A stretch of 64,000 bases of DNA from Ruminococcus sp. (lineage in GTDB: Bacteria; Bacillota; Clostridia; Oscillospirales; Ruminococcaceae). Positions within the stretch are counted from its first letter, which is position 1. The number at the start of each line of letters is the position of its first letter. Shown here piece by piece: positions 39,158-60,477 of this stretch. The stretch covers positions 186,066-250,065 of the forward strand of contig JAHABC010000001.1 in assembly GCA_018376535.1 (NCBI GenBank), read 5' to 3'. A model generated the notes under the pieces. That model did not search any database. It was not told the DNA's origin and was given only the letters and a program-made list of their open reading frames with translations. Made by a program: the position numbers and the translations under genes.

Positions 39158-39946
39158 TTAGCGTACTAAAACACTTCTACTAGTCTTTTTATAAAGTAGA
39201 TTATATATATCATTTTTAATAACATCGATATAATAGTCGCCAAGGTCGAATATAAAAAAGTGTTCGCCTGAGTATTCGTACTTAGAGAACTTGCCAGTAG
39301 TTACATCTTTCCAAGCGTCCATCATTTTAAAACTAGCATCGTGGTCTTTAGAACCTGCATACGCTATTATAGGAATACTTAAAACTTCATTATTATAGAT
39401 AAAAGTTTCATTTAGCTTGTAGTCATTCTTGATAAACGGAATTATAATCTTTAATACTTCCTCATTTTCCAAGATTTCTTTAGGAGTACCACCCATAAGT
39501 TTTAGTTCATCTATTAAAGCACTGTCGTCCATATCGGTAGAATATCTATCGCTAAAGTGAATACACGCTGAATGTCTACCAGATACCATCAAGGCTAATG
39601 GCTTATTAGAATAGTTTTGTTCAAGCTCATAAGCAGTTTTGAATGCTACTGCTGAACCCATACTATGTCCATATAATATGTATCTTCTGCCATCTGCAAA
39701 CTCTGAGATAGCTTTAGCAATCATAGAAGATATAGTATCCATATTGAATATGTAATCTTCTGCCATTCTGCAACCCTTTCCAGGTAACTCAATTGGAATG
39801 AATGCTATATGCTCATCATTTTTCTTAGTCCAAGGCATATATACAGATGCTGAACCTCCTGCATGATGAAAACAAAATACCAATATAGTGTCATCATTTA
39901 AAGATATCTTTTTTGAAAATGGAAACCATTTTGTACAATCTGTCAT
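39158..39946 (-). CDS. Type II (editing) thioesterase of the PKS/NRPS cluster
   Basis: It has FCFHHAGGSASVY (the TEII N-terminal motif) and LYGHSMGSAVAF (GxSxG). The start is taken at MTDCTKWFPF, with a GGAAG RBS 17 nt after the megasynthase stop. The tabulated ORF extends to 39994. Confidence 0.8.
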   Translation of the reverse strand: MTDCTKWFPFSKKISLNDDTILVFCFHHAGGSASVYMPWTKKNDEHIAFIPIELPGKGCRMAEDYIFNMDTISSMIAKAISEFADGRRYILYGHSMGSAVAFKTAYELEQNYSNKPLALMVSGRHSACIHFSDRYSTDMDDSALIDELKLMGGTPKEILENEEVLKIIIPFIKNDYKLNETFIYNNEVLSIPIIAYAGSKDHDASFKMMDAWKDVTTGKFSKYEYSGEHFFIFDLGDYYIDVIKNDIYNLLYKKTSRSVLVR

Positions 39947-39962: not shown

Positions 39963-42900
39963 TTAAAGTATTTCCCAATTGTCGCTATTGGCAATTGTAT
40001 TTATAAAGTTTATATAATCATTGAACATATTGTCAATAATTTCTGCATCAAAGAGTTCGCTAACGTAGTCCCAAATCAAAACTAGTTCATTATTTCTAAC
40101 CAATGCTTGATGGTCTAACGATACTTGTGGCGTTTGACTTATAGAATATACTTCTTTTACGCTATCAAAGATATCATTTTCATTAGAACTACTTTCAAGA
40201 TTTCCAAAAATCATACTAGTAAATACTACAGGCATAACGGCTTTTAGAATATTATCATCGGAGAAGTGTTTTAATAGTTCCAAACCGTTATAGGTTCTAT
40301 GTTCTATAGCCTCTACAAGATAGTTCTTAGTTGAAGTTAAGCTATCCATAAAAGTAGAATTTTTGCTTTCAAAGTAAGGAATTAATGTAATATTAGTAAA
40401 ATCTCCCAATATGTTCCAAACATCATTGTGTAGAGGTAATCTATTAAATAGCGTTAGATTTAAAGTGAAATCGTGAGTATTACTATACTTAGATAATACA
40501 CTCATATAAGCAGTGCATATAACTGCCGATGCCGTTAAACCATACTTTTTAATCTTCTCATTTAATAGATGTGTCTTATTCTTATCTAATACGAACCTCT
40601 TACGCTTAAAGTGAGGCGTTTCTACTTGTGAGAAATCTACCTTATACTTCAACTCTGGAGCGTTTGGCAAACTTTGAACACTATTTTCCCAATATTCTAT
40701 TGCCTTTTTATGATATTCTTTATCTTCAAGGAATATGCTTTCATTTGTAACGTAATCCTTAAACGATAGTTGTGGCTTTTTGATAGTTCTACCCTCATAG
40801 ACTTCAAATATTTCAGAAATCATCATATTAGCACTCCAACCATCTAAAAGGATACAGTCGAAACTAAAGTGCACTATATAGTTATCATTACCCAAATCAC
40901 TGACAATTATGTCAAACATAGGCCACTTGCCTATTTCGTACTTATGTTCCGACCAAGTACTTCTAACCTGCAAGAGTTCCTCATTAGATACCTTACTAAC
41001 TTTAACCTTGTAGTAAGGCATATTTTCAAGAACTGCTTGAGTTCCGTTGGAAAACACTACCGTTTGAAGAATATCATTGTAACGAATAACCTTATTAATA
41101 GATTTTTCTAACTTAACTAAATCAAGATTATTCCATTCTATTTCGGTGTAGTAGTGAGCACTAGTTCCACCCAATTCATAATAGTTAGAACGTCCTAACA
41201 GATAAGCCTTCTGTAATGGTGTTAGTAAGAATGAATTTTCTTTAAAGTATTCGGCATCATGTTTTTCTTGTTCAGCCTTTACAGTTAGATACTCTATTAA
41301 GGATTGCTTATTAGCTATCAACTCTGCCTTTAACTGAGGTGTCATCTTGCCCTTAGATGCCTTAAACTTTAACTTACCATCTTCAAGATATAGTTCTATT
41401 CCTTGATTAGAATACTTTTCTAATGGATTTTCTTGTAACTCAGTAGTAGTATATACAAAGTTATCATCATCATCTGGTTGAGAGTTATCTTGTTGTTGAA
41501 CAAAGTTATTATTATCGTTAGCGACTTTTCCATCGAAGAAGTTAATAAGTTCACTTACAGACTTATAAGATATCATATCACTTATAGATGGTCTTTCACC
41601 ATATATACTTTCTAACTCATCAGCAAGACGTATCATATCAACGGAAGATACTCCAAAAGCACTAAAACTATCATCTTCAGTAATTTCGGATATATCCAAA
41701 ATTTCTCTAATCTTCTTCAATATAGGATTAACATTCTCATTAGAAGTATTTGACGCTTTACTACTATTCTTTATATCCTCATATATTTGATGTAACTTTT
41801 TCATATCGGATTTGCCATTAGCTGTTACTGGTAAATCTTCTATACAAATAATCTTATCTGGAATAAAGTACTTAGGTAGATACTTACCAAGTTCTTGTTT
41901 TAGTAGTTCTTGGTCTATAGTATCCTTTTGGATTAGAAAAGCAACTATCTTTTTGCGTGAATTTCCAACAGGCATTATAATAGCCTTGCTATCTATACCA
42001 CACTTTTTAATTGCAGATATAATTTCACCTATTTCAATTCTGTAGCCGTTTATCTTTATTTGACCATCTTTTCTACCAAGGAACTCTATAACGCCATCAC
42101 TGATATACTTACCGTAATCGCCAGTATTATATAGTCGTTCGCCAATAGATTTATGTACATAGAAAGCATTTTCAGTTAAAGAAGGTTCATTATAATAACA
42201 TTCTGCAAGACCGTCACCTGCTATGTGAAGTTTTCCTGATACATAGTCTGGACATCTTCTGTTAAAGTCATCTAAGATATAAAATCTTTGGTTTGCTAAA
42301 GGATATCCATATGGAATAGAGTTCCATTCAGGATTTAAAGTATCCACATTAAAGTAGTTAGACCAAATAGATGCCTCTGTTGCACCACCCATGCTAGTAA
42401 GTTCGGCATTAGGAAGTGCTTTATATAGTTTATCCAATAGGTTTAGAGGTATCCAGTCACCCGATAGGATAACTTTTCTTATACTTTCTGAAGTTAAAGA
42501 TTTTTTATTTAAGAAGTCTAAATATAAATCCATAATAGCAGGAACAGTATTCCAAACAGTGACATCGTTGTGTTTAACTAACTGATATTGACTTTTAGGG
42601 TCTATTTTTTCCTGTTCAGTAGGAATAACTATCTTACCACCTACAGATAGCATTCCAAAAACGTCATACACTGATAAGTCAAAACTTAATGAAGATATCG
42701 CTATAGTACTATCATTAGATGTTATATTATACTTTCTAGTTACGTCATCTATGGTGTTCATTGCCGAACCGTGTGCAATGTACACTCCCTTTGGATTTCC
42801 CGTCGAACCAGATGTATATATAATATATGCACCATCACTAGCAGATATTGTCGGTAGATTAGTACCATCACTGCTAGAACTTTCAAAGTCTATGATACTA

Positions 42901-45900
42901 TAGTATGTAATACCCATATCATTGAACTTATTATCACCGATTATAGCCTTTGGTATGGATTTTTCTATGATATTTATAGTCCTATTTTTAGGTTGTTTGT
43001 ATGTAATAGGTACATAAACAGCTCCAGCCTTTAAAATTCCGACTATAGAGTAAATCTGTTCAAAAGATTTTGGAAGTTCTACTAGAACTCTGTCGCCTAT
43101 AGTAACGCCATCTTGTATTAGTTGATTAGCTACCTTATTAGAACACTCATCAAGTTGCCTATATGTATAAGAATTTCCATTGGTTACAACTGCTACGTTA
43201 TTTGGATTTTCTAAGACATTCTTATTAAAGCCAGTAAGTAGAGTAACTGGAGTATACTCAATAGTTGTCATATTAGCCTTATCGTGAGCCTCTACTTGAT
43301 ATGATGGTCTTAAATCTATTAAAGTTTGATTAAAGAACTCTGGATTTTCAATAGCCTTATCTACTAAAGAAGTATATACATCAAACATAGCACTTACGAC
43401 ATTATCCATGAATACGCCATCAAGGGTATCCCAAGATAGAACTATGTCTTTATCCTCATAGAAAATTTGATGGTCTATACAAACTTGTGGTGTAGATGAT
43501 ATCAAACTATTTGAAGATTTTAAGAAGATAGCATCATTGTCTGAGATATCTTTATTTAAATCATCAATACCGATAGCACTAGTAAATACTACAGTATACA
43601 TTCTATCTTCGTTGAAGTGTTTTCTTAACTCACCAACGAACTCTGTAGCAGAGTACTCTGTATGAGATATACTATTCATGATAGTACTTTGAATATCCAA
43701 AGCATTTTTAGATACAGTTGTATCCTTTCTATGAACATCTATTAAAGCTAGTTTAGTGAAGTCACCAATTATCTTTTGAACATCTTTGTTAATATTTTCT
43801 CTGTTGAAAACTGTCATCATTATAGCAAATGAAGAACCTCCTCCAAATGCAGATAACACTTCAGCATACAACGTAAACAACGCAGATGATGGAGTTAATC
43901 CATACTTAGCACAATTTTGAGTAAACTTCTTCCATTGCTTTGGATTGATATTCTTTCTTCTTCTAACGAACTTATGTTTATTATCCACAAATTCCGAACT
44001 CTTAAATGGTAGTTCAGGGGATTTAGGAAAATCTTCTATTTTAGATAACCAATATTTTTTGTCTACATCATGTTTAGCCTTAATATCACTGGAATTATTT
44101 AAGTAGTTAAGATAATCTTTGTAAGTAATAGTTAGAGGTTCTAATATTTCACCATTGTACAACTTGCCCATATCTTTCCAGAAGATATATAAACTCATAG
44201 CATCGGCAATCATGAAGTCTATGGAGAAGTGTATTCTGTAGTTGATATCATCTAACTTAGTTATAGCAACTTTAAACATAGGTTTATCTATAGGTAGAAT
44301 TTCATAAGACATAGTAGTTCTTATGTTATCAAGATGTTTTTGCATATCACTAATAGATTTATAATCATATACCACTACTGTAGAATACTCATCTTTAACA
44401 ATATACTGTTTAGCGTCCTTGTTCATGCGACATCTAAGCATATCGTGACGTTGTTCCAAGCACTTTAGAGTATGTTTAAACTTTTCGATATCTAAGTTAG
44501 GCATATCTAACTCAAAGTAAGTACAACACGCATTATTAGATAACAACATATTCTTATTATCTCTACCAGCCCAGTAAGCATATTGAATATCGTTTAAGTC
44601 GAACATATCGTATCTATGTTGTTCGTCTATTGTAACTTGATTAACTTGCTTATCAGCAGAATTACTTACAGTTAAACCTTTTAACAACTCTTTCCAACCA
44701 GATACAGTACAGTTATTAAAGAAATCATTTAGATTTATTTCAACATTGAAATGTTTTTTAATATCGCCTACTATCTTAACGCCGTTTAAGGAACTCAAAC
44801 CTAAAGTTAGTAGATTAGTATTTTCATCAATATCAGATTTATCAATACCTAAATGATATACTAATAAGTTTACAATATATTCCGATATCTTTTCGTCAGT
44901 AAGTTCCAAACTACTATTAGAAGTTTCTTCAACTTCGTTTATAACTGGAGTTGCATAACTAACCTTTTCATATAGATTGTGTATATAAGGTATCTTTTTA
45001 GTATCAAAAGCGTAGTTAGGAATATCGCAAGTTTGAGCGTTAAAAGATTTATAATAACCTCTCATATTGAAAGGAATAGCATATAAAAACATTGATGATA
45101 AGATTTCAGCAATCTTATAATCAGCAGAAGTATCTTTAGATGCTGAATATATACAATCGGCGTTACCGTTGGATATTCTTCCAATAAGACCACTTAAAAT
45201 AGGCATTGCACCAACTTCTAAGAATAAGTATTCCGATAGGTTTCCTAAATTGAGTACGCTATCTAGGAAACGAACTTCTGAAACTATATGTTGTTTCCAG
45301 TAATCAGCAGTTGTAAATAGAGTCGTTTCTGCCTTAGATGTAACGTTTGAAATAATATTCAACTTTGGCTTTGAATATGTTACTGTCTTAGCCACTTCAA
45401 AGAAGTCATTAGATGCATCTTGCATAAATGGTGTATGGAATGGTCTAGTAGTATTCAAGATAGTATGTTTTATATCTTTAGCATTTAGTATGCCATCTAT
45501 TTCTAAAATAGATTTTTCACTTCCTGCAATGACTGTCTGTTGCTGACTATTCGACAATGATATATATACATCATTATAAGGCTTAATGATATCTTTAATA
45601 CATTCTTTATCGGTGAATATAGCCATCATTTTGCCAAATATAGATTTTTCTTGTATAGCTTTACCTCTTGTAACTACGAGTTTCATGGCATCTTCAAGAG
45701 AGAATACTCCCGATATACAAGCCGAAACGTATTCGCCTATACTATGACCAAATACTATACTTGGATTGATTCCATACTTTTGATACATATACGCTAATGA
45801 ATATTCTACTGAAAATATCGCAGGTTGAGTATATACAGTTTGTGATAAGTCATACTTTTCGGAAAATACTAAATCTATTAGACTACCTCCAGTAAGTTGA

Positions 45901-47651
45901 TTATAATACTTATCACACATATCGAAGGCTTGTTTAAAGTAAGGATTTTTATAAAAATCCTTGCACATATTGTTATATTGTGAGCCTTGACCAGTAAATG
46001 TAAATACAATCTTCTTTTTAGATAGTCCCTTTTGTGTGAATATGTTGCTATCCATTTGACCAGAAATAGCCTTGTTTAATAGACTTTTTAAATCATCAAG
46101 ATTTTTAGCCATAATAAGAGTTCTAACCTCTAATATGGCTCTGGTTACATTTTGCGTATATGATAGATTAGTTAAGTTTATATCTTTGCAAGTTTCAACG
46201 TAAGCTAGGAACTTCTTCATCTGTTCAATAAGAGCGTTCTCAGTTACTGCCGAAAACATAAATGGATATACTGGCATATCTTGAGTAGTAACAGTATCTT
46301 TGTTATACTCCTCAAGAACTATATGAACGTTAGTTCCAGAAAGTCCAAACGAACTAACACCTGCAACCCTATTTTTACCATTAGATTTATTCCAATCCAT
46401 TAAGTTTTGAGCAACCTTAACAGATATAGCGTTCCAATTAACATACTCCGATGGTACGTTATAGTTTATACTTTTAACAATCTTTTTGTGTTCAAGCATA
46501 AGAGCAGTTTTTATCACACTAGCAATACCAGAAGCAGGTTCTAAGTGACCGATACTAGCCTTTAATGAACCTATATATAAAGGTTCGGTTCTATTAGAAC
46601 CTATTACGTTAGATATCGATTTTATTTCAATAGGGTCGCCTAGAGCAGTTCCTGTACCATGAGTTTCAATGTAGTCTATATCGTTAGGAGTAATACCACT
46701 CTTAATCCAAGCAGATTTCAAAAGTTCTTCTTGAGCAAATCCATTAGGTGCAGTTAGACTAGTACTAGCACCATCATGATTAATATAGCTACCCTTGATT
46801 ACACAATGTATACTATCATTATCGGCAGTGGCTTTGGATAGATTTTTCAATAGTATAGCACAACAACCTTCGCCTCTAACAGTACCATTAGCGAACTTAT
46901 CAAAACTTTTTAGTTCGCAAGTTTTGGATAGTATGTTCAATGCGGATAGCTTCTTAGTAGTTTCAGGTGAAAACATTATATTAACACCACAAACTATAGC
47001 CATTTCACAATCGTTATCTCTTAGCGATTTTATAGCTTGATTTATAGCACTCGCTGATGCTGAACAAGCAGTATCTATAGTTAAAGCTGGACCATGAAAA
47101 CCAAAAAAGTAAGATATTCTACCAGATATAAACGATACGTTCATACCAGTAACATCAATATCATGTTCATTTCTAGTTATGTTTTCGTTTAAGAAGTCTG
47201 TTTGAGCGACACCACAAAATACGCCTATTTTTTTACCTTTCAATTCTGTAGGAGAGTATCCTGCATTTTCAAGAACTTCCCAACAAACTTTTAGAACCAT
47301 TCTCTGTTGAGGGTCAATATAAGATGCCTCTTTAGGAGGAATTTTAAACAATCTACTGTCAAATTCTTCAATATCTTCAGTTAAAAAACCTGCCTTTTGC
47401 AAGTATGGATTTTTTAAAAGTTCATCTTTATCATACTCATTCCATCTATTTTCTGGGACGTTTATAATGTCATCTTGACCACTTTCAAGAGATTGCCAAA
47501 AATCTTGAGTATTTTTTATACCATTAGGTAACCTACAAGCCATTCCTATGATGGCTGTAGGTTCATTAGATATAGTTTTTTCTGATAAAAGTTTTTTTAA
47601 TCTTTGAATTTCAAGCAAAGCTTTTTTCATTAAATCTTTATTTTCAGACAT
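39963..47651 (-). CDS. Hybrid PKS-NRPS megasynthase: KS-AT-ACP-Cy-A(Cys)-PCP-Cy
   Basis: KS domain: DTACSAS, HGTGT, GHLEPASG. AT domain: GQGSQ, GHSIGE, and an RPFH malonyl-type motif. ACP: LGLSSL. Cy1: FDLNDIQYAYWAGR and DFMIADAMS (DxxxxDxxS). A domain: YIIYTSGSTGNPKGV, FDLSVYD, GGATEASIWS and LSGDWIP, which are Cys-type signatures. Other A-domain motifs are NTGDYGKY and GRKDGQIKINGYRIEIGEI. PCP: FGVSSVD. Cy2: LTPLQKAYLLGR and DCILLDGWS. A GGAGGT RBS is present. The start abuts the FAAL gene stop. Confidence 0.85.
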   Translation of the reverse strand: MSENKDLMKKALLEIQRLKKLLSEKTISNEPTAIIGMACRLPNGIKNTQDFWQSLESGQDDIINVPENRWNEYDKDELLKNPYLQKAGFLTEDIEEFDSRLFKIPPKEASYIDPQQRMVLKVCWEVLENAGYSPTELKGKKIGVFCGVAQTDFLNENITRNEHDIDVTGMNVSFISGRISYFFGFHGPALTIDTACSASASAINQAIKSLRDNDCEMAIVCGVNIMFSPETTKKLSALNILSKTCELKSFDKFANGTVRGEGCCAILLKNLSKATADNDSIHCVIKGSYINHDGASTSLTAPNGFAQEELLKSAWIKSGITPNDIDYIETHGTGTALGDPIEIKSISNVIGSNRTEPLYIGSLKASIGHLEPASGIASVIKTALMLEHKKIVKSINYNVPSEYVNWNAISVKVAQNLMDWNKSNGKNRVAGVSSFGLSGTNVHIVLEEYNKDTVTTQDMPVYPFMFSAVTENALIEQMKKFLAYVETCKDINLTNLSYTQNVTRAILEVRTLIMAKNLDDLKSLLNKAISGQMDSNIFTQKGLSKKKIVFTFTGQGSQYNNMCKDFYKNPYFKQAFDMCDKYYNQLTGGSLIDLVFSEKYDLSQTVYTQPAIFSVEYSLAYMYQKYGINPSIVFGHSIGEYVSACISGVFSLEDAMKLVVTRGKAIQEKSIFGKMMAIFTDKECIKDIIKPYNDVYISLSNSQQQTVIAGSEKSILEIDGILNAKDIKHTILNTTRPFHTPFMQDASNDFFEVAKTVTYSKPKLNIISNVTSKAETTLFTTADYWKQHIVSEVRFLDSVLNLGNLSEYLFLEVGAMPILSGLIGRISNGNADCIYSASKDTSADYKIAEILSSMFLYAIPFNMRGYYKSFNAQTCDIPNYAFDTKKIPYIHNLYEKVSYATPVINEVEETSNSSLELTDEKISEYIVNLLVYHLGIDKSDIDENTNLLTLGLSSLNGVKIVGDIKKHFNVEINLNDFFNNCTVSGWKELLKGLTVSNSADKQVNQVTIDEQHRYDMFDLNDIQYAYWAGRDNKNMLLSNNACCTYFELDMPNLDIEKFKHTLKCLEQRHDMLRCRMNKDAKQYIVKDEYSTVVVYDYKSISDMQKHLDNIRTTMSYEILPIDKPMFKVAITKLDDINYRIHFSIDFMIADAMSLYIFWKDMGKLYNGEILEPLTITYKDYLNYLNNSSDIKAKHDVDKKYWLSKIEDFPKSPELPFKSSEFVDNKHKFVRRRKNINPKQWKKFTQNCAKYGLTPSSALFTLYAEVLSAFGGGSSFAIMMTVFNRENINKDVQKIIGDFTKLALIDVHRKDTTVSKNALDIQSTIMNSISHTEYSATEFVGELRKHFNEDRMYTVVFTSAIGIDDLNKDISDNDAIFLKSSNSLISSTPQVCIDHQIFYEDKDIVLSWDTLDGVFMDNVVSAMFDVYTSLVDKAIENPEFFNQTLIDLRPSYQVEAHDKANMTTIEYTPVTLLTGFNKNVLENPNNVAVVTNGNSYTYRQLDECSNKVANQLIQDGVTIGDRVLVELPKSFEQIYSIVGILKAGAVYVPITYKQPKNRTINIIEKSIPKAIIGDNKFNDMGITYYSIIDFESSSSDGTNLPTISASDGAYIIYTSGSTGNPKGVYIAHGSAMNTIDDVTRKYNITSNDSTIAISSLSFDLSVYDVFGMLSVGGKIVIPTEQEKIDPKSQYQLVKHNDVTVWNTVPAIMDLYLDFLNKKSLTSESIRKVILSGDWIPLNLLDKLYKALPNAELTSMGGATEASIWSNYFNVDTLNPEWNSIPYGYPLANQRFYILDDFNRRCPDYVSGKLHIAGDGLAECYYNEPSLTENAFYVHKSIGERLYNTGDYGKYISDGVIEFLGRKDGQIKINGYRIEIGEIISAIKKCGIDSKAIIMPVGNSRKKIVAFLIQKDTIDQELLKQELGKYLPKYFIPDKIICIEDLPVTANGKSDMKKLHQIYEDIKNSSKASNTSNENVNPILKKIREILDISEITEDDSFSAFGVSSVDMIRLADELESIYGERPSISDMISYKSVSELINFFDGKVANDNNNFVQQQDNSQPDDDDNFVYTTTELQENPLEKYSNQGIELYLEDGKLKFKASKGKMTPQLKAELIANKQSLIEYLTVKAEQEKHDAEYFKENSFLLTPLQKAYLLGRSNYYELGGTSAHYYTEIEWNNLDLVKLEKSINKVIRYNDILQTVVFSNGTQAVLENMPYYKVKVSKVSNEELLQVRSTWSEHKYEIGKWPMFDIIVSDLGNDNYIVHFSFDCILLDGWSANMMISEIFEVYEGRTIKKPQLSFKDYVTNESIFLEDKEYHKKAIEYWENSVQSLPNAPELKYKVDFSQVETPHFKRKRFVLDKNKTHLLNEKIKKYGLTASAVICTAYMSVLSKYSNTHDFTLNLTLFNRLPLHNDVWNILGDFTNITLIPYFESKNSTFMDSLTSTKNYLVEAIEHRTYNGLELLKHFSDDNILKAVMPVVFTSMIFGNLESSSNENDIFDSVKEVYSISQTPQVSLDHQALVRNNELVLIWDYVSELFDAEIIDNMFNDYINFINTIANSDNWEIL

Positions 47652-47653
47652 AA

Positions 47654-49756
47654 CTATATATTACCTCCAAGTTCTTGATTAAGTAAGTCTGCGATATCAT
47701 CTTCAGATAGTTCATCATTAGAGTTATCAAAGTACTTGTTATATACATATTCGGAGAAAGTATCGATAGTGTTATAGTTAAATATATCTACTATTTCAAG
47801 ATTTATTTCAAGACCTTCATTAATTTCACTTATTATATCCACTGAAGATTTAGAGTTTATACCCATCTGCATAAAAGGTATGGATTTATCTATATTAGAC
47901 TTATCAACACTTAAATGACTGGATATTAAAGTTAATACTAAGTCTACCATTTCATCTTTATTAGATGGCTTAACAAAGTCAATCTTAACAGATTTAACGT
48001 TATCGGAAACGTATAAAATATCCTTTAGAGTGTTATTTAGATATGCTTTTTTAGTAGCCAATCTCATAATCTTGCCACTGTAGGTTCTAAGAATACTATT
48101 CTCAGCTACAAAGATAACTTTTCCTACCGATAGCTTAAACGATTGTAATATATTATTTCTTATCTTATTAGCAATGTTAGATAACTCCTCTACAGATACA
48201 TCTTCAGCAACCTCTTGAATTAGAGTTAAACTATCTTCATCATCGCTAGAGTTTGAAAATACACAACTTGCATAGTTTAAGCGATTATCACTCTCATAGG
48301 AAACTTGTTCAATATCTTGAGGGTAATAGTTTACACCTCTAATGATAATAATTTCCTTAAATCTACCAGTGATAAATAACGCACCTTTTTCACTAAGGAA
48401 ACCAGCATCACCAGTATGTAAGATAACTTCTCCAGAAGTTTCATCTTTAACAAAGGAGTCTAAAGTATCAGCTTCATTCTTCCAATAGCCCTCAGCAACC
48501 GATTCGCCCAATACACAAACTTCACCAATTTCAAAAGGTTTAAGCTGATTGCCTTGGTTATCTAAAACCATAACTTTATCACCAATATCAATAGGAGAAC
48601 CGTTCCCTACTAGATACGTTACATTACTTTCATTTTCATCTACATAGTTTAGAAAACTATCTAAAACACCAGAAGATATTACAGATACTCTATTTTCGGA
48701 TAGTTTTTTAGTATCCAATTTAATCCATTCAGTATCTTCACCTGTGTAGTTGGCACTTACACAAAGAGTAGCCTCTGCAAGACCATAAGCACCCATAACA
48801 GCACTATCACGCAAACCCAGTTTATTAGCACACTTTATAAACTTTACAAGAGTATTAAATCTAACAGGTTCAGAACCGCTAATTATTCTAACTAAGGAAT
48901 CTAATCTAATACCATAAGCATTACTGTCATCATTTTCAATCTTTTCAAGAATGTTAGCTAAAATCTCGAAGGCAAAGTTAGGAGCAACTGTAAATGTAGC
49001 CTTATAATCGGATATAACTTTTAACCATATAATAGGATTTTTCTTAAAAGATGTTGGCGACATAAATATATCTTGACAACCGGAAGATATACTAGTTAAA
49101 AGTCCAGCAATAAGTCCCATATCGTGATAGTATGGCAACCAACTAACCCATCTACTAGTTTCATTAAGTCCTAGTTTTGCCATTATGTTCTGTAGATTGT
49201 TTATCAACGATAGATTAGTTACCATAACGCCTTTAGGCTCTTTTGTAGAACCAGATGTATATTGTAACAAAGCGATATCATTTATAACGCATAGTTCCTC
49301 ATTAGACTTTCCATCAGTTTGAGCGTATACTGGAGTGCTATTAAACTCTGCATTACTAGTAGCAGAAATTTTTTCTAAAATATCATTATTAGTTAAAATA
49401 CAAGATGCCTCACAATTATTGATGATACCTTTCCACTTTTTAAACTCACCATCAAATAGAGGCATATCCACTGGCACTATTATAGCACCTATTAAGTTAC
49501 AAGCCATAATACCAACCACAAGTTCTAAGTTGGCATGATACATAAGTATACATCTATCATTTTGTTTAACATTGTTCTCTAATAGATAGTTCGCAAAAGA
49601 CTCAGATTGTAAGTATAGTTGACTATATGTAATAGATGACTTATTTCCATCATCATCAATAAAGATATATGCTTCAACATCTGGAGTTATATCTGCACGA
49701 TATTTTAATATTTCTCCAATACTTTTAAAACTATCGATTTGAAAGTTACCCATCAT
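47654..49756 (-). CDS. Fatty acyl-AMP ligase with a C-terminal ACP (starter-unit loading didomain)
   Basis: 700 aa. The FAAL-type adenylation region carries LQYTSGSTKEPKGV and GDAGF. The C-terminal carrier reads FMQMGINSKSSVDII. The position directly upstream of the KS module is typical of lipopeptide/hybrid initiation. Confidence 0.8.
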   Translation of the reverse strand: MMGNFQIDSFKSIGEILKYRADITPDVEAYIFIDDDGNKSSITYSQLYLQSESFANYLLENNVKQNDRCILMYHANLELVVGIMACNLIGAIIVPVDMPLFDGEFKKWKGIINNCEASCILTNNDILEKISATSNAEFNSTPVYAQTDGKSNEELCVINDIALLQYTSGSTKEPKGVMVTNLSLINNLQNIMAKLGLNETSRWVSWLPYYHDMGLIAGLLTSISSGCQDIFMSPTSFKKNPIIWLKVISDYKATFTVAPNFAFEILANILEKIENDDSNAYGIRLDSLVRIISGSEPVRFNTLVKFIKCANKLGLRDSAVMGAYGLAEATLCVSANYTGEDTEWIKLDTKKLSENRVSVISSGVLDSFLNYVDENESNVTYLVGNGSPIDIGDKVMVLDNQGNQLKPFEIGEVCVLGESVAEGYWKNEADTLDSFVKDETSGEVILHTGDAGFLSEKGALFITGRFKEIIIIRGVNYYPQDIEQVSYESDNRLNYASCVFSNSSDDEDSLTLIQEVAEDVSVEELSNIANKIRNNILQSFKLSVGKVIFVAENSILRTYSGKIMRLATKKAYLNNTLKDILYVSDNVKSVKIDFVKPSNKDEMVDLVLTLISSHLSVDKSNIDKSIPFMQMGINSKSSVDIISEINEGLEINLEIVDIFNYNTIDTFSEYVYNKYFDNSNDELSEDDIADLLNQELGGNI

Positions 49757-49838: not shown

Positions 49839-49855
49839 GTTAGCAACTGCTAACC
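49839..49855. promoter_or_regulatory. Operator-like palindrome AGTTAGC-aact-GCTAACC (distal FAAL site)
   Basis: 7-4-7 inverted repeat with one mismatch, 66 bp upstream of the first copy. Confidence 0.45.
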
Positions 49856-50171: not shown

Positions 50172-50220
50172 AAATACAATATATTAATAACTATTTTTTA
50201 TAGATGTTATTGTATCTTGC

Positions 50221-50238
50221 AGTTAGCTAAAGCTAACT
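50221..50238. promoter_or_regulatory. Operator-like palindrome AGTTAGC-taaa-GCTAACT abutting the RBS of the ABC ATPase gene
   Basis: A perfect 7-4-7 inverted repeat immediately 5' of the AAAGGAGGAG RBS. Confidence 0.5.
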
Positions 50239-50255
50239 TAAAGGAGGAGTATATT

Positions 50256-50954
50256 TTGTATCTTAGTGTACAAAACTTAAAAAAGAGTTATGGCAATGGT
50301 TCTAGCCAAGTACAAGTTTTGAAGGGTATAAATACAGAGATTGAAAAAGGTCAAATGTGTGTTATACTAGGACCAAGTGGTTCAGGAAAATCCACTTTTT
50401 TAAACCTTATAGGTGGTCTTGATACCATAGACAGCGGAAATGTAATAATAGATGGCTTAAATATAGCGGGTATGGATAGTAATAAACTATCTAAGTACAG
50501 ACGTGACTATCTAGGATTTATATTTCAATTCTACAACTTAGTTCCAAATTTGACTATATATGAAAATATTCAAGTTTGCGAAAATCTAACTCAAAAAGCC
50601 TTGGATATAAACGAACTCTTAGATATATTAGGTCTAACTGAACATAAAAATAAGTTTCCATCACAACTATCTGGAGGTCAACAACAAAGATGTGCTATTG
50701 CTAGAGCTTTAGTTAAAAATCCTAAGTTACTACTATGCGATGAGCCTACTGGTGCTTTGGATTCTAAAACATCTAAAGAAATACTAGTCCTATTGGAAAA
50801 GGTTAATAAGATGTATAATACTACTATGCTAATAGTTACTCACAATACGGCTATTAAAGATATGGTTCATAAGGTTATCAAAATTAAAGACGGTCTTATT
50901 AGCAAAGATTATATAAATGATAATATTATATCGGCAAATGACATAGAATGGTAA
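50256..50954 (+). CDS. ABC transporter ATP-binding protein (MacB/FtsE-like, pairs with the FtsX-type permease)
   Basis: It has Walker A GPSGSGKST, signature LSGGQQQR and Walker B LLLCDEPTGALD. The TTG start at 50256 sits 6 nt after the AAAGGAGGAG RBS. The tabulated ORF start at 50217 is upstream of the RBS. Confidence 0.85.
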   Translation: MYLSVQNLKKSYGNGSSQVQVLKGINTEIEKGQMCVILGPSGSGKSTFLNLIGGLDTIDSGNVIIDGLNIAGMDSNKLSKYRRDYLGFIFQFYNLVPNLTIYENIQVCENLTQKALDINELLDILGLTEHKNKFPSQLSGGQQQRCAIARALVKNPKLLLCDEPTGALDSKTSKEILVLLEKVNKMYNTTMLIVTHNTAIKDMVHKVIKIKDGLISKDYINDNIISANDIEW

Positions 50955-50969
50955 CTTGAGGTATACATT

Positions 50970-53900: not shown

Positions 53901-54629
53901 TTTGATGTCCCAGATAAAAAGAATACTGTCGTAGTAGGTAGTTCAATGGCTATAAAGTTCGGTTTAAAAGTTGGCGACGTTGTATACTTCAACGATGAAC
54001 TAAACGACAGAGTTTACTCCTTTGAAGTTGCTGATATAGTTCAATATTCAATTGGTTTGTATATGTTCATGGATATTGACAGAATGAGAGATTTATACAA
54101 TCAAGAGGACGATTATTTCAACGTATTAATATCCGATGAGGAACTAAATATCGATATAAACAGAGTGTACTCCACTATTAAGGATACCGATATTTTAAGT
54201 ATATCTGCTATATTTAAAGAAAGTATGAGTGGTATGATAACTATGTTATTAGTAATATCGGTAGTTATATTTGTAGTGGTAATGTATCTAATGATAAACA
54301 TTATGCTAGATAAATCGGCTAATAACATATCACTGATAAAAATATTCGGATATAATGACAAGGAAGTTAAAAACCTCTACCTTGATGGTAACTTCTTTGT
54401 AATATTAATATCATCATTGATAAACGTACCTATATCAAAGATGTGTATGAATGCTTTGTGGCCATCAATGGTATCCAATATGCAATGTGGCTTTGATACT
54501 TCAATACCTGCGTATATGTACATAGTAGTATTCCTAGTTATATTCATATGTTACTTTGTAGTAAGCCTTCTATTGATGCGTAAGCTAAGAGGAATATCCC
54601 CTGCTGAAGTTCTAAAGAACAGAGAATAA
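50970..54629 (+). CDS. Giant FtsX/MacB-family ABC permease (1219 aa) with two FtsX 4-TM modules and an approximately 700-aa ectodomain carrying three tandem, approximately 115-aa YhgE/Pip-like repeats
   Basis: An N-terminal TM segment is followed by an ectodomain with repeats (VNLTIDNYKSELNKV / VQLTKDNYSATLQQI / VNLTIDNYSSQLSNI). The first FtsX block spans about aa 745-870 and the second lies at the C-terminus. The gene is coupled to the upstream ATPase by a 15-nt gap. Confidence 0.75.
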   Translation: MVLNKRILRNIKKNFFRWFALFLLVVLGIYMVLSLIAAAETVTYGVNTYADEQNLEDGEFTVFVPLTNDNLEYISDKGYSLEENFYIDFAMNDDRNSTLRIFKNRENINVQIANDGSIASKDNEILLEHHYAELHGYNIGDTISIADLDFKVVGVGASPDYDDCRQNLSDAGTDHNVFGMAFVTPNAYDKLKATDKYKNTEEYLYSYKLGKDNSDDDLKELLQALDFDLTDIKDKYVRELIDDVEDEKNDIIDGVNKLQDASYELKDNLKKFSDGTKELSDGVQTFNDKTSEFFDGINQLYDALNTLSSNNSKLLDGANSVYDALFSMVESSLAENDIKVNLTIDNYKSELNKVMNNPSKISDNTRKQINDLISSLDSYNQFYTGLKEYTSGVDSLTAGASSLSNGTTQLSDGVHVLSSGLERIVANNSSINNGTSTLLDSLLGMVQGQLNQYGFDVQLTKDNYSATLQQIYDQLSTVSPESAESIMNLKSSIDGVVTLNNGIASYTGGVSEVYNGVNSLSSGVSELSNGCNTLLEGLQTLSTYNSSLVSGSQDVFNALLSTAQTQLKSGGIDVNLTIDNYSSQLSNIANNIDTYTSDALKSQLTSAIEQLDSYGEFYNGIVDYTDAVNSIYDGAKTLNDSCKDITNAIDELADGSNEIDENSIKLYDGSVEFADAIDTLADNIYDIVDEVFTIDIDNLTMFLTAEDNIRIKASIDDVAINKSGGLVGGVILIILFAYVISVFIIHEINDESAVIGALYSMGVSKKTLLMHYITLPMIIAFVGGLLGTILAFTPLGVGNQIKSAVTYYSLPNLEYVYPIYALIYGIVLPPVIALIVNVIVINSALSQTPLSLLRKSNKNKIRTINLSTGKLSFTNQFRVRQFVRELRTSITLFFGMLVALLLLMLGLTCYFSINNYQVQNKQDLNYKYLYSLKYELDKEDIPTNAVQCYSESVNKEILGQDMKVTLMGIDGNSKYFNFDVPDKKNTVVVGSSMAIKFGLKVGDVVYFNDELNDRVYSFEVADIVQYSIGLYMFMDIDRMRDLYNQEDDYFNVLISDEELNIDINRVYSTIKDTDILSISAIFKESMSGMITMLLVISVVIFVVVMYLMINIMLDKSANNISLIKIFGYNDKEVKNLYLDGNFFVILISSLINVPISKMCMNALWPSMVSNMQCGFDTSIPAYMYIVVFLVIFICYFVVSLLLMRKLRGISPAEVLKNRE

Positions 54630-56540: not shown

Positions 56541-56549
56541 ATTAAATTA

Positions 56550-59773: not shown

Positions 59774-59788
59774 ATATAAATAACTCCT

Positions 59789-60475: not shown

Positions 60476-60477
60476 AA

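What the first reader, a model, noticed from the sequence alone, without database searches (positions are those of the whole stretch)
39963..47651. The megasynthase ends in a second heterocyclisation domain with no cognate carrier protein (tandem Cy, trans-acting)
The domain order is KS-AT-ACP-Cy1-A-PCP-Cy2-stop. Both Cy domains have the N-terminal Cy1 motif (FDLNDIQYAYWAGR, LTPLQKAYLLGR) and DxxxxDxxS cores (DFMIADAMS, DCILLDGWS). The single A domain shows Cys-type signatures (FDLSVYD, GGATEASIWS, LSGDWIP). A C-terminal Cy with no downstream PCP in the same protein implies one of two things. It may condense onto an aminoacyl-PCP of another protein, namely the split A(MT)-PCP-TE module. Alternatively, the A domain may load Cys in trans, as HMWP2 does. 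A Ser/Asn/Asp-rich acidic linker (NDNNNFVQQQDNSQPDDDDNF, about 41470-41530) separates PCP from Cy2 and may be a docking or flexible element. The PKS module lacks any reductive domain, so a beta-keto group is delivered to Cy1.
Basis: partly seen in the sequence, partly recalled or inferred. Interest (0 to 1): 0.75.

Follow-up and report, generated by a model that had tools for sequence, protein, structure and literature searches.

The report
Synthetase ending in a trans-acting cyclisation domain
A giant enzyme gene from an uncultured human-gut Clostridia bacterium really does end in a ring-forming (Cy) domain with no carrier of its own. Its most likely partner is a separate loading-and-carrier protein encoded just past the window edge, an arrangement with known precedents and many uncharacterised relatives.

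Summary
ORF 39963-47651 (- strand, 2562 aa) reads KS-AT-ACP-Cy1-A1-PCP1-linker-Cy2-stop. A type II thioesterase and then housekeeping PEPCK follow, so no PCP is hidden downstream.

Cy2 looks active:
- It keeps the Cy1 motif, DxxxxDxxS and the Thr/Asp cyclodehydration dyad.
- It models confidently as a Cy fold.
- It is under purifying selection across 10 strains.

The "split A(MT)-PCP-TE module" is a window-edge artefact. The full protein is dock-Cy3-A3(MT)-PCP3-TE, with its own Cy.

The likely partner of Cy2 is a standalone 950-aa A2-PCP2 protein about 8.5 kb beyond the window, with a PchE-type Cys code. It is the only A-PCP without a Cy.

Relatives support this:
- The closest relatives of dock-Cy2 include free-standing dock-Cy proteins in Clostridia clusters; every context examined also holds such an A-PCP.
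- At least 18 protein families end in dock-Cy.

Precedents exist: TlnC/TlnD, AngN and, from memory, BlmIV/BlmIII. This is a new member of a known kind, in an uncharacterised pyochelin/equibactin-like lipo-thiazoline cluster. The pairing is inferred, not demonstrated.

The parts
39963..47651 (-). PKS-NRPS megasynthase, 2562 aa: KS-AT-ACP-Cy1-A1-PCP1-linker-bhD-Cy2
   Evidence: ORF; translation; Pfam. The ORF is intact in 10 further assemblies.
46461..47564 (-). KS domain (residues 30-397). It has the DTACSAS active-site Cys. An N-terminal coiled-coil-like segment precedes it.
   Evidence: Pfam ketoacyl-synt and Ketoacyl-synt_C; motif; N-terminus printed.
45195..46007 (-). AT domain (residues 549-819), with GHSIG and RPFH motifs. 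No KR, DH or ER lies between AT and ACP.
44688..44879 (-). ACP (residues 925-988, LGLSSL)
43302..44618 (-). Cy1 (residues about 1012-1450). Motifs: FDLNDIQYAYWAGR, DFMIADAMS, VFTS, PQVCID.
41811..43226 (-). A1, Cys-type adenylation domain (residues 1476-1947), code DLYNISMIWK
   Evidence: Reference codes come from PMC3672683 Table 1.
41532..41744 (-). PCP1 (residues about 1970-2040, FGVSSVD)
41424..41531 (-). Asn/Asp/Gln-rich acidic linker (residues 2041-2076). It is predicted disordered. Strains differ here by a one-codon indel (D2060) and a P/L change (2059).
41286..41423 (-). Internal TubC_N-type beta-hairpin docking domain (residues 2077-2122)
   Evidence: Pfam PF18563, E 2.5e-13. It aligns to the EpoB docking region and to Kj12B-NDD. 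[quoted passage not shown]
39966..41243 (-). Cy2, C-terminal heterocyclisation domain (residues about 2137-2562). Motifs: LTPLQKAYLLGR, DCILLDGWS, VFTS (Thr 2478), PQVSLD (Asp 2513). The protein ends ...SDNWEIL*.
   Evidence: Best PDB match is BmdB Cy2 5t3e, E 1.3e-74. Motifs. Catalytic columns are invariant in 42 homologues. AF2 mean pLDDT is 89.6. 25 of 29 variable codons are synonymous.
39158..39946 (-). Type II thioesterase (262 aa, GHSMG)
47654..49756 (-). Fatty-acyl-AMP-ligase-like A domain fused to an ACP (700 aa). It is the presumed starter-loading protein.
   Evidence: Pfam AMP-binding, AMP-dom_DIP2-like and PP-binding.
61156..64000 (-). C-terminal part of the 1805-aa bhD-Cy3-A3(MT)-PCP3-TE protein (PchF-like). 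It is cut by the window end inside A3.
   Evidence: A3 code is DLYNLSLIW(K). TE has GHSFG.
58385..61074 (-). ECF-type transporter genes: Trep_Strep S component, CbiQ-like T component, and a double ABC ATPase
   Evidence: Trep_Strep and CbiQ genes also sit next to related clusters in L099 and L103.
54774..58322 (-). Pair of fused permease-ATPase ABC half-transporters (588 and 590 aa). Their architecture resembles YbtPQ and EqbKL.
   Evidence: The comparison rests on domain architecture as described in PMC3672683.
49774..50237 (.). Four copies of the palindrome GTTAGC-N4-GCTAAC (49774, 49839, 50155, 50222). They lie at the divergent promoter between the FAAL-ACP gene and the MacB-like ABC genes: three in the intergenic region, the fourth just inside the listed start of ORF 50217..50954. 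Two more copies lie upstream of the A2-PCP2 gene, outside the window.
   Evidence: There are 6 matches in the window to the looser pattern against 0.07 expected by chance.

Best explanation
Proposed mechanism. Cy2 is the condensation/cyclodehydration half of a split NRPS module. Its adenylation-carrier half is the standalone 950-aa protein A2(MT-like insert)-PCP2, which is the first gene of the cluster, about 8.5 kb beyond the window end.

Proposed assembly line:
1. FAAL-ACP loads a fatty acyl starter.
2. KS-AT-ACP adds one malonyl unit, and the beta-keto group is kept.
3. Cy1/A1/PCP1 adds Cys as the first thiazoline.
4. Cy2 takes the chain from PCP1 in cis. It condenses and cyclises it onto Cys-S-PCP2, which A2 has loaded, in trans. 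This gives the second thiazoline.
5. The conserved C-terminal tail of PCP2 (...EEGEL) docks on the beta-hairpin docking domain of the PchF-like subunit.
6. Cy3/A3(MT)/PCP3 adds the third Cys. The Irp3/PchG-like reductase and the embedded MT convert it to an N-methyl-thiazolidine.
7. The TE releases a carboxylic acid.

Origin. The mega-enzyme arose by in-frame fusion of an originally free-standing dock-Cy gene onto the 3' end of the front-end PKS-NRPS gene. The internal docking domain and the variable linker are the fusion scar.

Shown versus inferred. Shown: domain content, motif integrity, selection, orthology to free-standing dock-Cy proteins, co-occurrence with A-PCP proteins, and the domain bookkeeping. 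Inferred: the physical Cy2/PCP2 pairing, the order of steps, and the product.
For: 1. Bookkeeping. The whole cluster has three Cy, three Cys-type A and three PCP domains. Cy2 is the only Cy without a cis A-PCP. A2-PCP2 is the only A-PCP without a C or Cy domain (A starts at residue 33), and unrelated DUF genes lie upstream of it.
2. A2 looks functional. Core motifs A1-A8 and A10 are present, as is the PCP Ser in GGDSL. Its code DLFNLSLIW(K) equals the PchE code, and A3's equals the PchF code (PMC3672683 Table 1).
3. Cy2 looks functional. All catalytic motifs are kept and are invariant across 42 homologues. The Cy fold is modelled confidently. 25 of 29 variable codons are synonymous across 10 strains, the lowest amino-acid variability per residue of any large domain apart from KS.
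4. Orthology. dock-Cy2 is 43% and 38% identical over its full length to the free-standing dock-Cy proteins of Clostridiaceae bacterium M8S5 and Ruminiclostridium sufflavum. The PchF-like (43%, 39%) and Irp3-like (44%, 40%) proteins show the same divergence. Identity to its own Cy1 is only 28%, and to Cy3 31%.
5. Co-occurrence. All 7 other contexts examined hold a standalone A(MT-like)-PCP of 938-1116 aa. In R. sufflavum that gene overlaps the end of the dock-Cy gene. In L100 it lies immediately upstream. The domain counts balance the same way in the M8S5 and R. sufflavum clusters.
6. One pathway. In L103, a different species with the same fused architecture at 41% identity, the genes A2-PCP2, reductase-MT, dock-Cy3-A3-PCP-TE, FAAL-ACP, the megasynthase and TEII are contiguous on one strand.
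7. Co-regulation. The palindrome GTTAGC-N4-GCTAAC marks both promoter regions of the two sub-operons.
8. Docking tail. 8 of 8 A2-PCP2 homologues end in a near-invariant x-E/I-G-E/A-I/L tail. This is the expected kind of partner for a beta-hairpin docking domain (PMC9113145).
9. Precedent. A PKS-NRPS ending in Cy that acts on Cys-S-PCP of a separate A-PCP protein has been reconstituted in vitro for TlnC/TlnD (bioRxiv 10.1101/2024.12.18.629141). Free-standing AngN acts in trans in the same sense (PMC5524678).
Against: - No direct evidence of a Cy2/A2-PCP2 interaction exists.
- A2-PCP2 has no recognisable N-terminal docking element, with only 32 residues before the A domain.
- In our species the two halves lie in different sub-operons, 13 kb apart.
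- The PchF-like Cy3 carries ExxxxDxxS rather than DxxxxDxxS. Some redistribution of condensation duties cannot be excluded.
- If donor docking is now covalent, retention of the docking domain is unexplained by this model alone.
- A2-PCP2 could in principle be a loading module for Cy3 in a separate short pathway.
Confidence: 0.68

Rival explanations
1. Cy2 condenses onto the aminoacyl-PCP of the A(MT)-PCP-TE terminal module (PCP3), so that module is 'split' and Cy2 is its missing Cy.
For: Within the window only A(MT)-PCP-TE is visible. The Cy3 of that protein has a variant first catalytic residue, EFIIADWTS.
Against: The full protein is 1805 aa. It has its own N-terminal docking domain and a Cy3 that keeps the Cy1 motif, the second Asp, VFTS and PQVFID. 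ExxxxD is conserved in 5 of 7 orthologues, so it is a family trait and not decay. This model also leaves A2-PCP2 with no Cy and one Cy too many for PCP3.
Confidence: 0.08
2. HMWP2-style trans loading. A1 aminoacylates a carrier on another protein, and Cy2 works on that carrier without a dedicated A domain.
For: The domain order Cy1-A-PCP1-Cy2 copies HMWP2. Trans loading by a single Cys A domain is described for yersiniabactin and equibactin (PMC3672683) and for PxbF (PMC9396620).
Against: There are three A domains for three PCPs. A2 and A3 have intact core motifs and canonical Cys codes. No orphan PCP exists in the cluster.
Confidence: 0.07
3. Two separate pathways. In one, A2-PCP2 plus dock-Cy3-A3(MT)-PCP3-TE make a small Cys-Cys product. 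In the other, Cy2 is an off-loading or non-canonical domain. It might release the lipo-thiazoline chain onto a free nucleophile. It might instead perform a TlnC-like sulfur transfer or thioester chemistry, with TEII assisting release.
For: In our species the two gene sets are separate sub-operons. The megasynthase operon has its own thioesterase. Non-canonical Cy chemistry is documented for TlnC and PxbG.
Against: Cy2 has the canonical Thr/Asp dyad, not the Asn/Asp of TlnC. Even TlnC needs Cys on a separate A-PCP. dock-Cy travels with the A-PCP/PchF-like/Irp3-like cassette in clusters that have quite different front ends. All genes are contiguous in L103. The two promoter regions share an operator-like palindrome. 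The 262-aa thioesterase is of the type II (PF00975) kind, usually an editing enzyme.
Confidence: 0.1
4. Cy2 is a non-catalytic relic or a purely structural or dimerisation element left by a gene fusion.
For: The internal docking domain looks like a fusion scar.
Against: All catalytic residues are kept and are invariant in the family. Selection is strongly purifying: 4 amino-acid changes in 426 codons against 25 synonymous-only sites. The architecture is conserved between proteins only 41-56% identical.
Confidence: 0.03

Closest known systems
Thiolactomycin TlnC (PKS-NRPS ending in ACP-Cy) with TlnD (A-PCP-TE)
   Same: A hybrid synthase ends in a Cy domain. The Cys-loaded A-PCP it works on is a separate protein. 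This was reconstituted in vitro (bioRxiv 10.1101/2024.12.18.629141).
   Different: TlnC Cy has an Asn/Asp dyad and performs sulfur transfer to give a thiocarboxylate, with no thiazoline formed. Cy2 here has the canonical Thr/Asp dyad, a PCP rather than an ACP as donor, and a docking domain in front of it. The trans partner here lacks a TE.
Bleomycin BlmIV / BlmIII
   Same: From memory, BlmIV ends in a Cy domain whose A-PCP(-Ox) partner is the separate protein BlmIII. [quoted passage not shown]
   Different: From memory, the BlmIII A domain is inactive and its PCP is loaded in trans by BlmIV. Here A2 looks intact. Here there is no Ox domain, so thiazolines rather than thiazoles are expected. 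The domain order of BlmIV could not be verified in the held library.
Yersiniabactin HMWP2 (ArCP-Cy1-A-PCP1-Cy2-PCP2)
   Same: The run Cy1-A-PCP1-Cy2 is the same. The A code is close (DLYNISMI against DLYNMSMI). HMWP2 Cy domains are strong PDB matches: 7jtj at E 1.5e-63, and 7ry6.
   Different: HMWP2 keeps PCP2 in cis and uses one A domain for three PCPs. Here the carrier after Cy2 is on another protein with its own A domain. The starter is fatty acyl plus a PKS unit, not salicylate.
Pyochelin PchE / PchF / PchG
   Same: The A2 code equals PchE and the A3 code equals PchF (PMC3672683 Table 1). As in PchE, A2 carries a degenerate MT-like insert (that PchE has one is from memory). As in PchF, the last module is Cy-A(MT)-PCP-TE. 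An Irp3/PchG-like reductase is present.
   Different: In PchE the Cy is in cis with A-PCP. Here the Cy has been separated and fused to the preceding synthetase. The front end is lipid/polyketide plus an extra thiazoline instead of salicylate.
Anguibactin AngN (free-standing Cy-Cy protein)
   Same: Cy domains act in trans on Cys that is activated and carried by other proteins, AngR and AngM (PMC5524678).
   Different: AngN is a true tandem Cy-Cy protein with no other domains. Here the Cy is fused to the donor synthetase.
Free-standing dock-Cy proteins of Clostridia clusters (e.g. Clostridiaceae bacterium M8S5, Ruminiclostridium sufflavum DSM 19573). These are uncharacterised.
   Same: They are 38-43% identical over docking domain plus Cy. 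They sit in the same cassette: A(MT-like)-PCP, saccharopine-dehydrogenase-like protein, Irp3-like reductase, and dock-Cy-A(MT)-PCP-TE.
   Different: They are separate 470-520-aa proteins. Here the same unit is fused to the C-terminus of the front-end PKS-NRPS.
Equibactin (eqb) locus of Streptococcus equi
   Same: It is a Firmicute yersiniabactin-like cluster. It has a thiazoline reductase (EqbF), an essential saccharopine-dehydrogenase-family protein (EqbM), a type II TE (EqbB), a three-gene importer (EqbHIJ) and a YbtPQ-like ABC pair (EqbKL) (PMC3672683).
   Different: Equibactin uses a salicylate starter, a single A domain and all Cy domains in cis. Homology of the transporter genes to those here was not tested directly.
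EpoB docking-Cy bidomain (PDB 5t7z, 5t81)
   Same: [quoted passage not shown]
   Different: In EpoB the docking domain is at the protein N-terminus and receives EpoA. Here it is internal, 30-odd residues after PCP1.

Membership tests
NRPS heterocyclisation (Cy) domain - applied to Cy2 | DxxxxDxxS in place of the HHxxxDG motif of C domains | tested here: met
   DCILLDGWS at residues 2265-2273. Both Asp and the Ser are invariant in 42 homologues.
NRPS heterocyclisation (Cy) domain - applied to Cy2 | Thr/Asp cyclodehydration dyad (BmdB T1196 and D1226) | tested here: met
   VFTS (Thr 2478) and PQVSLD (Asp 2513) align to the BmdB FTS and QVYLD positions, which lie 30 residues apart in BmdB, matching T1196/D1226. 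Both are invariant in the family. The significance of the dyad is as stated.
NRPS heterocyclisation (Cy) domain - applied to Cy2 | Cy fold (V-shaped C-domain superfamily fold matching solved Cy domains) | tested here: met
   AF2 mean pLDDT 89.6 and pTM 0.86. The Foldseek top hit is 5t3e (target-normalised TM-score 0.90, rmsd 2.1), followed by EpoB and HMWP2 Cy domains.
NRPS heterocyclisation (Cy) domain - applied to Cy2 | Catalyses amide bond formation plus cyclodehydration on a PCP-bound Cys, Ser or Thr | not testable with these tools
   This requires biochemistry.
Beta-hairpin (TubC_N-type) docking domain | Sequence match to PF18563 above the gathering score | tested here: met
   50.3 bits against a cut-off of 26, residues 2077-2122. 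The domain is also detected in the fused homologues P0128, P0138, P0145 and P0140.
Beta-hairpin (TubC_N-type) docking domain | [quoted passage not shown] | tested here: met
   The model shows H36-42, E45-50, E53-58, H65-73 and H75-99. The fold definition comes from PMC9113145.
Beta-hairpin (TubC_N-type) docking domain | Located at the N-terminus of a subunit, receiving the C-terminal short linear motif of another subunit | tested here: not met
   The domain is internal, 36 residues after PCP1 in the same polypeptide. It works like, or derives from, such a domain, but it is not at a subunit boundary.
Beta-hairpin (TubC_N-type) docking domain | Binds a cognate short linear motif | tested here: inconclusive
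   A conserved candidate motif (...EGE[IL]*) exists on A2-PCP2. The PchF-like docking domain is an equally good receptor. No binding test was possible.
Split Cy | A-PCP module (BlmIV/BlmIII and TlnC/TlnD type) | The synthetase polypeptide ends in a Cy domain with no carrier after it | tested here: met
   The stop comes 0 residues after ...NWEIL, and the next gene is TEII.
Split Cy | A-PCP module (BlmIV/BlmIII and TlnC/TlnD type) | A separate A-PCP protein lacking any C or Cy domain is encoded in the same cluster | tested here: met
   The 950-aa A2-PCP2. It lies outside the window. It is present in all 7 related contexts examined.
Split Cy | A-PCP module (BlmIV/BlmIII and TlnC/TlnD type) | The Cy domain demonstrably uses that trans PCP as acceptor | not testable with these tools
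   This is inferred from domain bookkeeping and co-occurrence only.
HMWP2/EqbE-type single-A trans aminoacylation | Fewer A domains than PCPs, with orphan PCPs loaded in trans | tested here: not met
   Three Cys-type A domains serve three PCPs, and A2 and A3 core motifs are intact.
TlnC-type sulfur-transfer Cy | Asn replaces Thr in the dyad (N-D) | tested here: not met
   Thr 2478 is present. The feature is as described. That paper also shows N-to-T did not restore thiazoline formation, so the residue is indicative and not decisive.
Pyochelin/yersiniabactin/equibactin-type thiazoline metallophore cluster | Multiple Cy domains with Cys-specific A domains, an Irp3/PchG/YbtU-like thiazoline reductase, an A-embedded MT and a terminal TE | tested here: met
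Pyochelin/yersiniabactin/equibactin-type thiazoline metallophore cluster | Aryl-acid (salicylate or DHB) starter with an ArCP | tested here: not met
   The starter is a FAAL-like A-ACP plus a KS-AT-ACP module. No salicylate-type A domain or ArCP is present in the cluster.
Pyochelin/yersiniabactin/equibactin-type thiazoline metallophore cluster | The product binds metal and is re-imported | not testable with these tools
   The only support is the neighbouring ECF-type and ABC transporter genes.

The most novel reading that the evidence does not exclude
The docking domain kept inside the fused synthetase may not be a dead fusion scar. It may recruit the acceptor protein instead. It would bind the near-invariant C-terminal ...EGE(I/L) tail of the standalone A2-PCP2 and so bring PCP2 to Cy2. 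The docking domain of the PchF-like subunit would then use the same tail. One short linear motif would thus serve two Cy domains, once as acceptor and once as donor.

This would explain two observations. In clusters with a free-standing dock-Cy, the donor synthetases end flush with their last PCP and carry no tail. In fused synthetases only 41-56% identical to each other, the docking domain is still conserved.

The whole cluster would then encode an undescribed lipidic tris-thiazol(id)ine metallophore of a common uncultured human-gut Oscillospiraceae-like bacterium.
Probability: 0.25. Interest if true: 0.6.

Novelty: new member of a known kind. Interest (0 to 1): 0.4.

Why it matters
For annotation. 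A synthetase that ends in a Cy domain should prompt a search for a standalone A-PCP, possibly in another operon or beyond a contig or window edge. It should not be read as an orphan or unusual terminal domain. Here the window edge created a false 'split module'.

For enzymology. The family offers natural free and fused versions of the same dock-Cy unit. Free-standing versions dominate the closest short relatives. At least 18 fused protein families appear among the top 150 representatives. This is a ready-made comparative system for asking what a beta-hairpin docking domain does once docking has become covalent, and how a Cy finds a trans acceptor carrier.

For microbiome chemistry. The cluster's proteins are indexed in 141 collection blocks (thioesterase) and 432 blocks (Trep_Strep protein), and the loci retrieved came from human-gut metagenome assemblies. 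It resembles pyochelin and equibactin machinery with a lipid/polyketide front end and dedicated transporters. It is therefore a candidate for an uncharacterised metal-binding metabolite from an uncultured commensal.

Tried and rejected
- **Scan for A2-PCP2 relatives in the GTDB species representatives.** The exact-peptide-pattern scan found nothing. The method reaches only close relatives, so absence is weak evidence.
- **PEPCK as an anchor.** I used it to name the organism and to look for the cluster in related genomes. The best matches are only 86% identical, to uncultured Clostridia, Ruminococcus or Oscillospiraceae MAGs. None of the 80 loci carries the megasynthase or TEII next to PEPCK. 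The species is therefore not pinned down, and the cluster appears lineage-restricted.
- **Word-indexed homologue search.** It returned no protein longer than 913 aa and no self hit. That gave the impression that all close relatives of dock-Cy2 are free-standing. The exhaustive HMMER search corrected this: many long synthetases end in dock-Cy.
- **AF2 model of linker-dock-Cy2.** I wanted to see whether the acidic linker lies on the docking domain like a bound motif. The linker came out disordered (pLDDT below 50). It has no alignment depth, so the result is uninformative rather than negative.
- **Literature searches for this gut cluster or for the Clostridia cassette.** They found nothing specific. 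The library is limited to open-access papers.
- **The BlmIV domain order.** It could not be verified in the held papers; only titles were seen. It is marked as memory.
- **Hidden PCP.** I considered a frameshift or assembly error hiding a PCP after Cy2. I rejected it because the ORF is intact, with the same end, in 10 further assemblies, and the next ORF is fully accounted for by a thioesterase domain.
- **Cy3 inactivity.** I considered whether the ExxxxD variant means Cy3 is inactive. I rejected this as unlikely because the variant is conserved in 5 of 7 orthologues.

Full report
**1. What is in the sequence**

The finding's coordinates are exactly one ORF on the minus strand, 39963..47651, of 2562 aa. 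Pfam gives the following domains:
- KS, residues 30-397
- AT, residues 549-819
- ACP, residues 925-988
- a first condensation-family domain (Cy1, about 1012-1450)
- an AMP-binding domain, residues 1476-1947
- a second PP-binding site (PCP1, about 1970-2040)
- a second condensation-family domain running to the last residues (Cy2, about 2137-2562)

No KR, DH or ER was detected.

The stop is followed by a 262-aa thioesterase gene (39158..39946) and then by GTP-dependent PEPCK and other housekeeping genes. So no carrier protein is hidden downstream.

One element was missed. A TubC_N beta-hairpin docking domain sits at residues 2077-2122, between PCP1 and Cy2 (E 2.5e-13, 50.3 bits against a cut-off of 26). 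It lies directly after the Asn/Asp-rich linker, residues 2045-2065, window 41457-41519.

**2. It is not an artefact**

An identical copy occurs in a further assembly. Nine more gut-metagenome assemblies carry an intact 2561/2562-aa ORF at 98.9-99.6% nucleotide identity.

Among these strains, Cy2 has 29 variable codons, of which 25 are synonymous only. The whole protein has 58 variable amino-acid columns, and only 4 are in Cy2. That is the signature of a domain under purifying selection.

The linker is the opposite. It carries a one-codon indel and a Pro/Leu change.

**3. Cy2 looks catalytically competent**

- Its best solved relative is the BmdB Cy2 domain (5t3e, E 1.3e-74). The HMWP2 Cy2 domain (7jtj), EpoB (5t7z) and the HMWP2 Cy1 domain (7ry6) follow.
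- In the alignment, the BmdB positions FTS and QVYLD lie 30 residues apart, matching T1196 and D1226. They align to VFTS (Thr 2478) and PQVSLD (Asp 2513).
- Together with DCILLDGWS and LTPLQKAYLLGR, all residues considered essential are present. They are invariant in an alignment of 42 homologues.
- An AF2 model built on that alignment is confident (mean pLDDT 89.6, pTM 0.86). [quoted passage not shown]
- Foldseek returns BmdB Cy2 (target-normalised TM-score 0.90) and the EpoB 'cyclization-docking bidomain' as the top hits.

**4. The surroundings, including what lies beyond the window**

Upstream on the same strand:
- a FAAL-like A-ACP gene (47654..49756)
- a MacB-like ABC system on the opposite strand (50217..54629)
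- two fused ABC half-transporters (54774..58322)
- an ECF-type transporter (58385..61074)
- an NRPS ORF that runs off the window end (61156..>64000)

I fetched the same locus from other assemblies of the same species (99% identical). I also fetched one contig that extends further. These show that the truncated ORF is the last 943 aa of an 1805-aa protein with the order TubC_N dock, Cy3, A3 with embedded MT, PCP3, TE.

Further upstream come three genes:
- an Irp3/PchG-like thiazolinyl reductase (362 aa)
- a saccharopine-dehydrogenase-family NAD-binding protein (364 aa)
- a 950-aa protein that is the first gene of the cluster

In that 950-aa protein the A domain begins at residue 33. It carries a roughly 350-aa degenerate MT-like insert and a PCP at residues 875-935, and it has no C or Cy domain. 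Beyond it are unrelated DUF genes.

**5. Bookkeeping and specificity**

The complete cluster has three Cy domains, three A domains besides the FAAL, and three PCPs. Cy2 is the only Cy lacking a cis A-PCP. A2-PCP2 is the only A-PCP lacking a C or Cy.

Specificity codes were read off the core motifs and compared with Table 1 of PMC3672683:

| Domain | Code | Reference match |
|---|---|---|
| A1 | DLYNISMIWK | HMWP2: DLYNMSMI |
| A2 | DLFNLSLIW(K) | PchE: identical over the eight positions tabulated |
| A3 | DLYNLSLIW(K) | PchF: identical over the eight positions tabulated |

A2 has the A1-A8 and A10 core motifs that were checked and the PCP serine. Its insert lacks a SAM motif I, which the A3 MT has. 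HMWP2-style trans loading is therefore unnecessary.

**6. Relatives**

*Free-standing relatives.* The word-indexed protein search returned, as closest relatives of dock-Cy2 (35-43% identity), free-standing proteins of 470-520 aa. They consist of just TubC_N plus Cy, and many come from Clostridia.

Their genomic contexts all contain the same cassette: a standalone A(MT-like)-PCP of 938-1116 aa, an Irp3-like reductase, usually the saccharopine-dehydrogenase-like protein, a dock-Cy-A(MT)-PCP-TE protein, and a variable front-end NRPS. Two details:
- In Ruminiclostridium sufflavum the A-PCP gene overlaps the end of the dock-Cy gene.
- In L100 the A-PCP gene lies immediately upstream of the dock-Cy gene.

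The domain counts balance in the same way in the M8S5 and R. sufflavum clusters.

*Orthology.* Our dock-Cy2 is as similar to these free-standing proteins (43% and 38%) as the neighbouring PchF-like (43%, 39%) and Irp3-like (44%, 40%) proteins are to their orthologues. It is only 28% identical to its own Cy1 and 31% to Cy3. Cy2 is thus the orthologue of the cassette's free-standing Cy, fused here to the end of the front-end PKS-NRPS.

*Fused relatives.* The exhaustive HMMER search shows this fusion is not unique. At least 18 of the best 150 cluster representatives are long synthetases that end 0-17 residues after a dock-Cy unit. P0128, P0138 and P0145 are 56%, 45% and 41% identical to our protein. 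They have exactly the order KS-AT-ACP-Cy-A-PCP-TubC_N-Cy.

In the P0145 locus the genes for A2-PCP2, a reductase-MT fusion, dock-Cy3-A3-PCP-TE, FAAL-ACP, the megasynthase and TEII are contiguous on one strand. This argues that the two sub-operons of our window belong to one pathway.

*Shared operator.* A palindrome, GTTAGC-N4-GCTAAC, supports the same conclusion. Four copies lie at the FAAL/MacB divergent promoter and two lie upstream of the A2-PCP2 gene. Only 0.07 matches per window are expected by chance.

**7. Mechanism proposed**

1. FAAL-ACP loads a fatty acyl starter.
2. KS-AT-ACP extends it once, without reduction.
3. Cy1/A1/PCP1 makes the first thiazoline.
4. Cy2 takes the chain from PCP1 in cis. 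It condenses and cyclises it onto Cys-S-PCP2 of the standalone protein.
5. The PCP2 tail docks on the PchF-like subunit.
6. Cy3/A3(MT)/PCP3, the Irp3-like reductase and the TE finish an N-methyl-thiazolidine carboxylate, by analogy with pyochelin.

The accessory genes have functional counterparts in the equibactin locus: a saccharopine-dehydrogenase-family protein, a thiazoline reductase, a type II TE, a three-gene importer and a YbtPQ-like ABC pair. In that locus the first is essential for production and the importer for iron uptake (PMC3672683). A metallophore is therefore a reasonable guess at the product.

The pairing of Cy2 with PCP2, the order of steps and the product are inferences. The domain content, motif integrity, selection, orthology and co-occurrence are shown.

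**8. Precedents**

- A PKS-NRPS that ends in ACP-Cy and acts on Cys carried by a separate A-PCP-TE protein has been reconstituted for thiolactomycin (TlnC/TlnD). That Cy has an Asn/Asp dyad and performs sulfur transfer rather than thiazoline formation.
- AngN is a free-standing Cy protein that acts on Cys activated by AngR and carried by AngM.
- From memory, BlmIV ends in a Cy whose A-PCP-Ox partner is BlmIII. Only the title of the relevant paper could be seen here.

The terminal, trans-acting Cy is therefore a known kind of arrangement.

**9. What remains unexplained**

All eight standalone A-PCP homologues end in a near-invariant pentapeptide...(E/V)EGE(I/L)*. Ours reads ...EDIEEGEL*. This is the kind of C-terminal short linear motif that beta-hairpin docking domains bind through its last five residues. 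One such motif can recruit more than one docking-domain-bearing subunit (PMC9113145).

By contrast, the front-end synthetases that should hand the chain to a free-standing dock-Cy stop flush with their last PCP. This was seen in L085, L099 and L101.

The docking domain has also been kept in fused synthetases that have diverged to 41% identity, although donor docking is now covalent.

One reading is that the docking domain of Cy2 binds the PCP2 tail and so recruits the acceptor. Others are a dimerisation or purely structural role. The tools here could not test this.

Two smaller oddities:
- The dock-Cy family ends in a conserved (D/E/N)-W-(E/D)-x-(I/L/V) segment.
- The PchF-like Cy3 has ExxxxDxxS in 5 of 7 orthologues.

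**10. Organism**

GC content is about 32%. The PEPCK next to the cluster is at best 86% identical to proteins of uncultured Clostridia, Ruminococcus or Oscillospiraceae MAGs. None of 80 related PEPCK loci carries the cluster. All retrieved copies come from human-gut metagenome assemblies.

**11. Verdict**

This is a new member of a known kind: a split Cy | A-PCP module in a pyochelin/equibactin-like thiazoline cluster. Two points of moderate interest remain: the conserved internal docking domain, and the fact that the cluster belongs to a widespread but uncharacterised family in gut Clostridia.

Noticed in passing
window 49774-49789, 49839-49854, 50155-50170, 50222-50237; L097 12304-12319 and 12407-12422: A 16-bp palindrome, GTTAGC-N4-GCTAAC, occurs four times at the divergent FAAL-ACP / MacB-like promoter (three copies intergenic, the fourth just inside the listed start of ORF 50217..50954) and twice upstream of the A2-PCP2 gene. 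Only 0.07 matches per window are expected by chance. It looks like a shared operator. No regulator gene was identified in the cluster, whereas related clusters carry TetR genes. Two copies also occur in the related locus L100, upstream of a LytTR regulator gene and of the biosynthetic operon.
   Followed up: partly
L097 9409-12261 (- strand), and homologues in L085, L086, L098, L099, L100, L101 and L103: All eight standalone A(MT-like)-PCP proteins end in a near-invariant C-terminal pentapeptide, ...(E/V/L/I)(E/I)G(E/A)(I/L)*. This is a candidate short linear motif for a beta-hairpin docking domain. The front-end synthetases in clusters with a free-standing dock-Cy have no such tail.
   Followed up: partly
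L001 4502-9919 (the PchF-like protein, whose last 943 aa are window 61156-63987): Its Cy3 has EFIIADWTS, so Glu replaces the first Asp of DxxxxDxxS. The same substitution is found in 5 of 7 orthologues, namely those with an embedded MT. The Thr/Asp dyad is kept.
   Followed up: partly
window 50217-54629 (+ strand): An ABC ATPase and a 1219-aa FtsX/MacB-type permease with a long central coiled-coil-like region are inserted, on the opposite strand, between the two biosynthetic sub-operons. They share the palindrome-bearing promoter region.
   Followed up: no
window 58385-61074 (- strand); also L099 21383-21497 and L103 23808-25135: ECF-type transporter genes (a Trep_Strep S component and a CbiQ-like T component) accompany this cluster and at least two related clusters in other organisms. 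This suggests that an ECF system imports the product.
   Followed up: no
window about 34747-35101, corresponding to L088 14850-15635: Strain-level gene-content difference. One assembly (L088) carries a 261-aa methyltransferase gene between the RsmE-like and TatD-like genes. The other assemblies have a 107-aa ORF at that position.
   Followed up: no
window 39963-49756 against loci L005-L084: None of 80 loci around the PEPCK orthologue in related Clostridia genomes (up to 86% PEPCK identity) carries the megasynthase or the TEII. The cluster appears to be a lineage-restricted insertion next to PEPCK.
   Followed up: partly
L097 9409-12261, residues about 490-860 of A2: The A2 domain carries a roughly 350-aa insert with only a weak methyltransferase match (E 1e-3) and a degenerate SAM motif (VAIYGVSSG). 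From memory, this resembles the MT-like epimerisation insert described for PchE. Some homologues give stronger MT hits.
   Followed up: no
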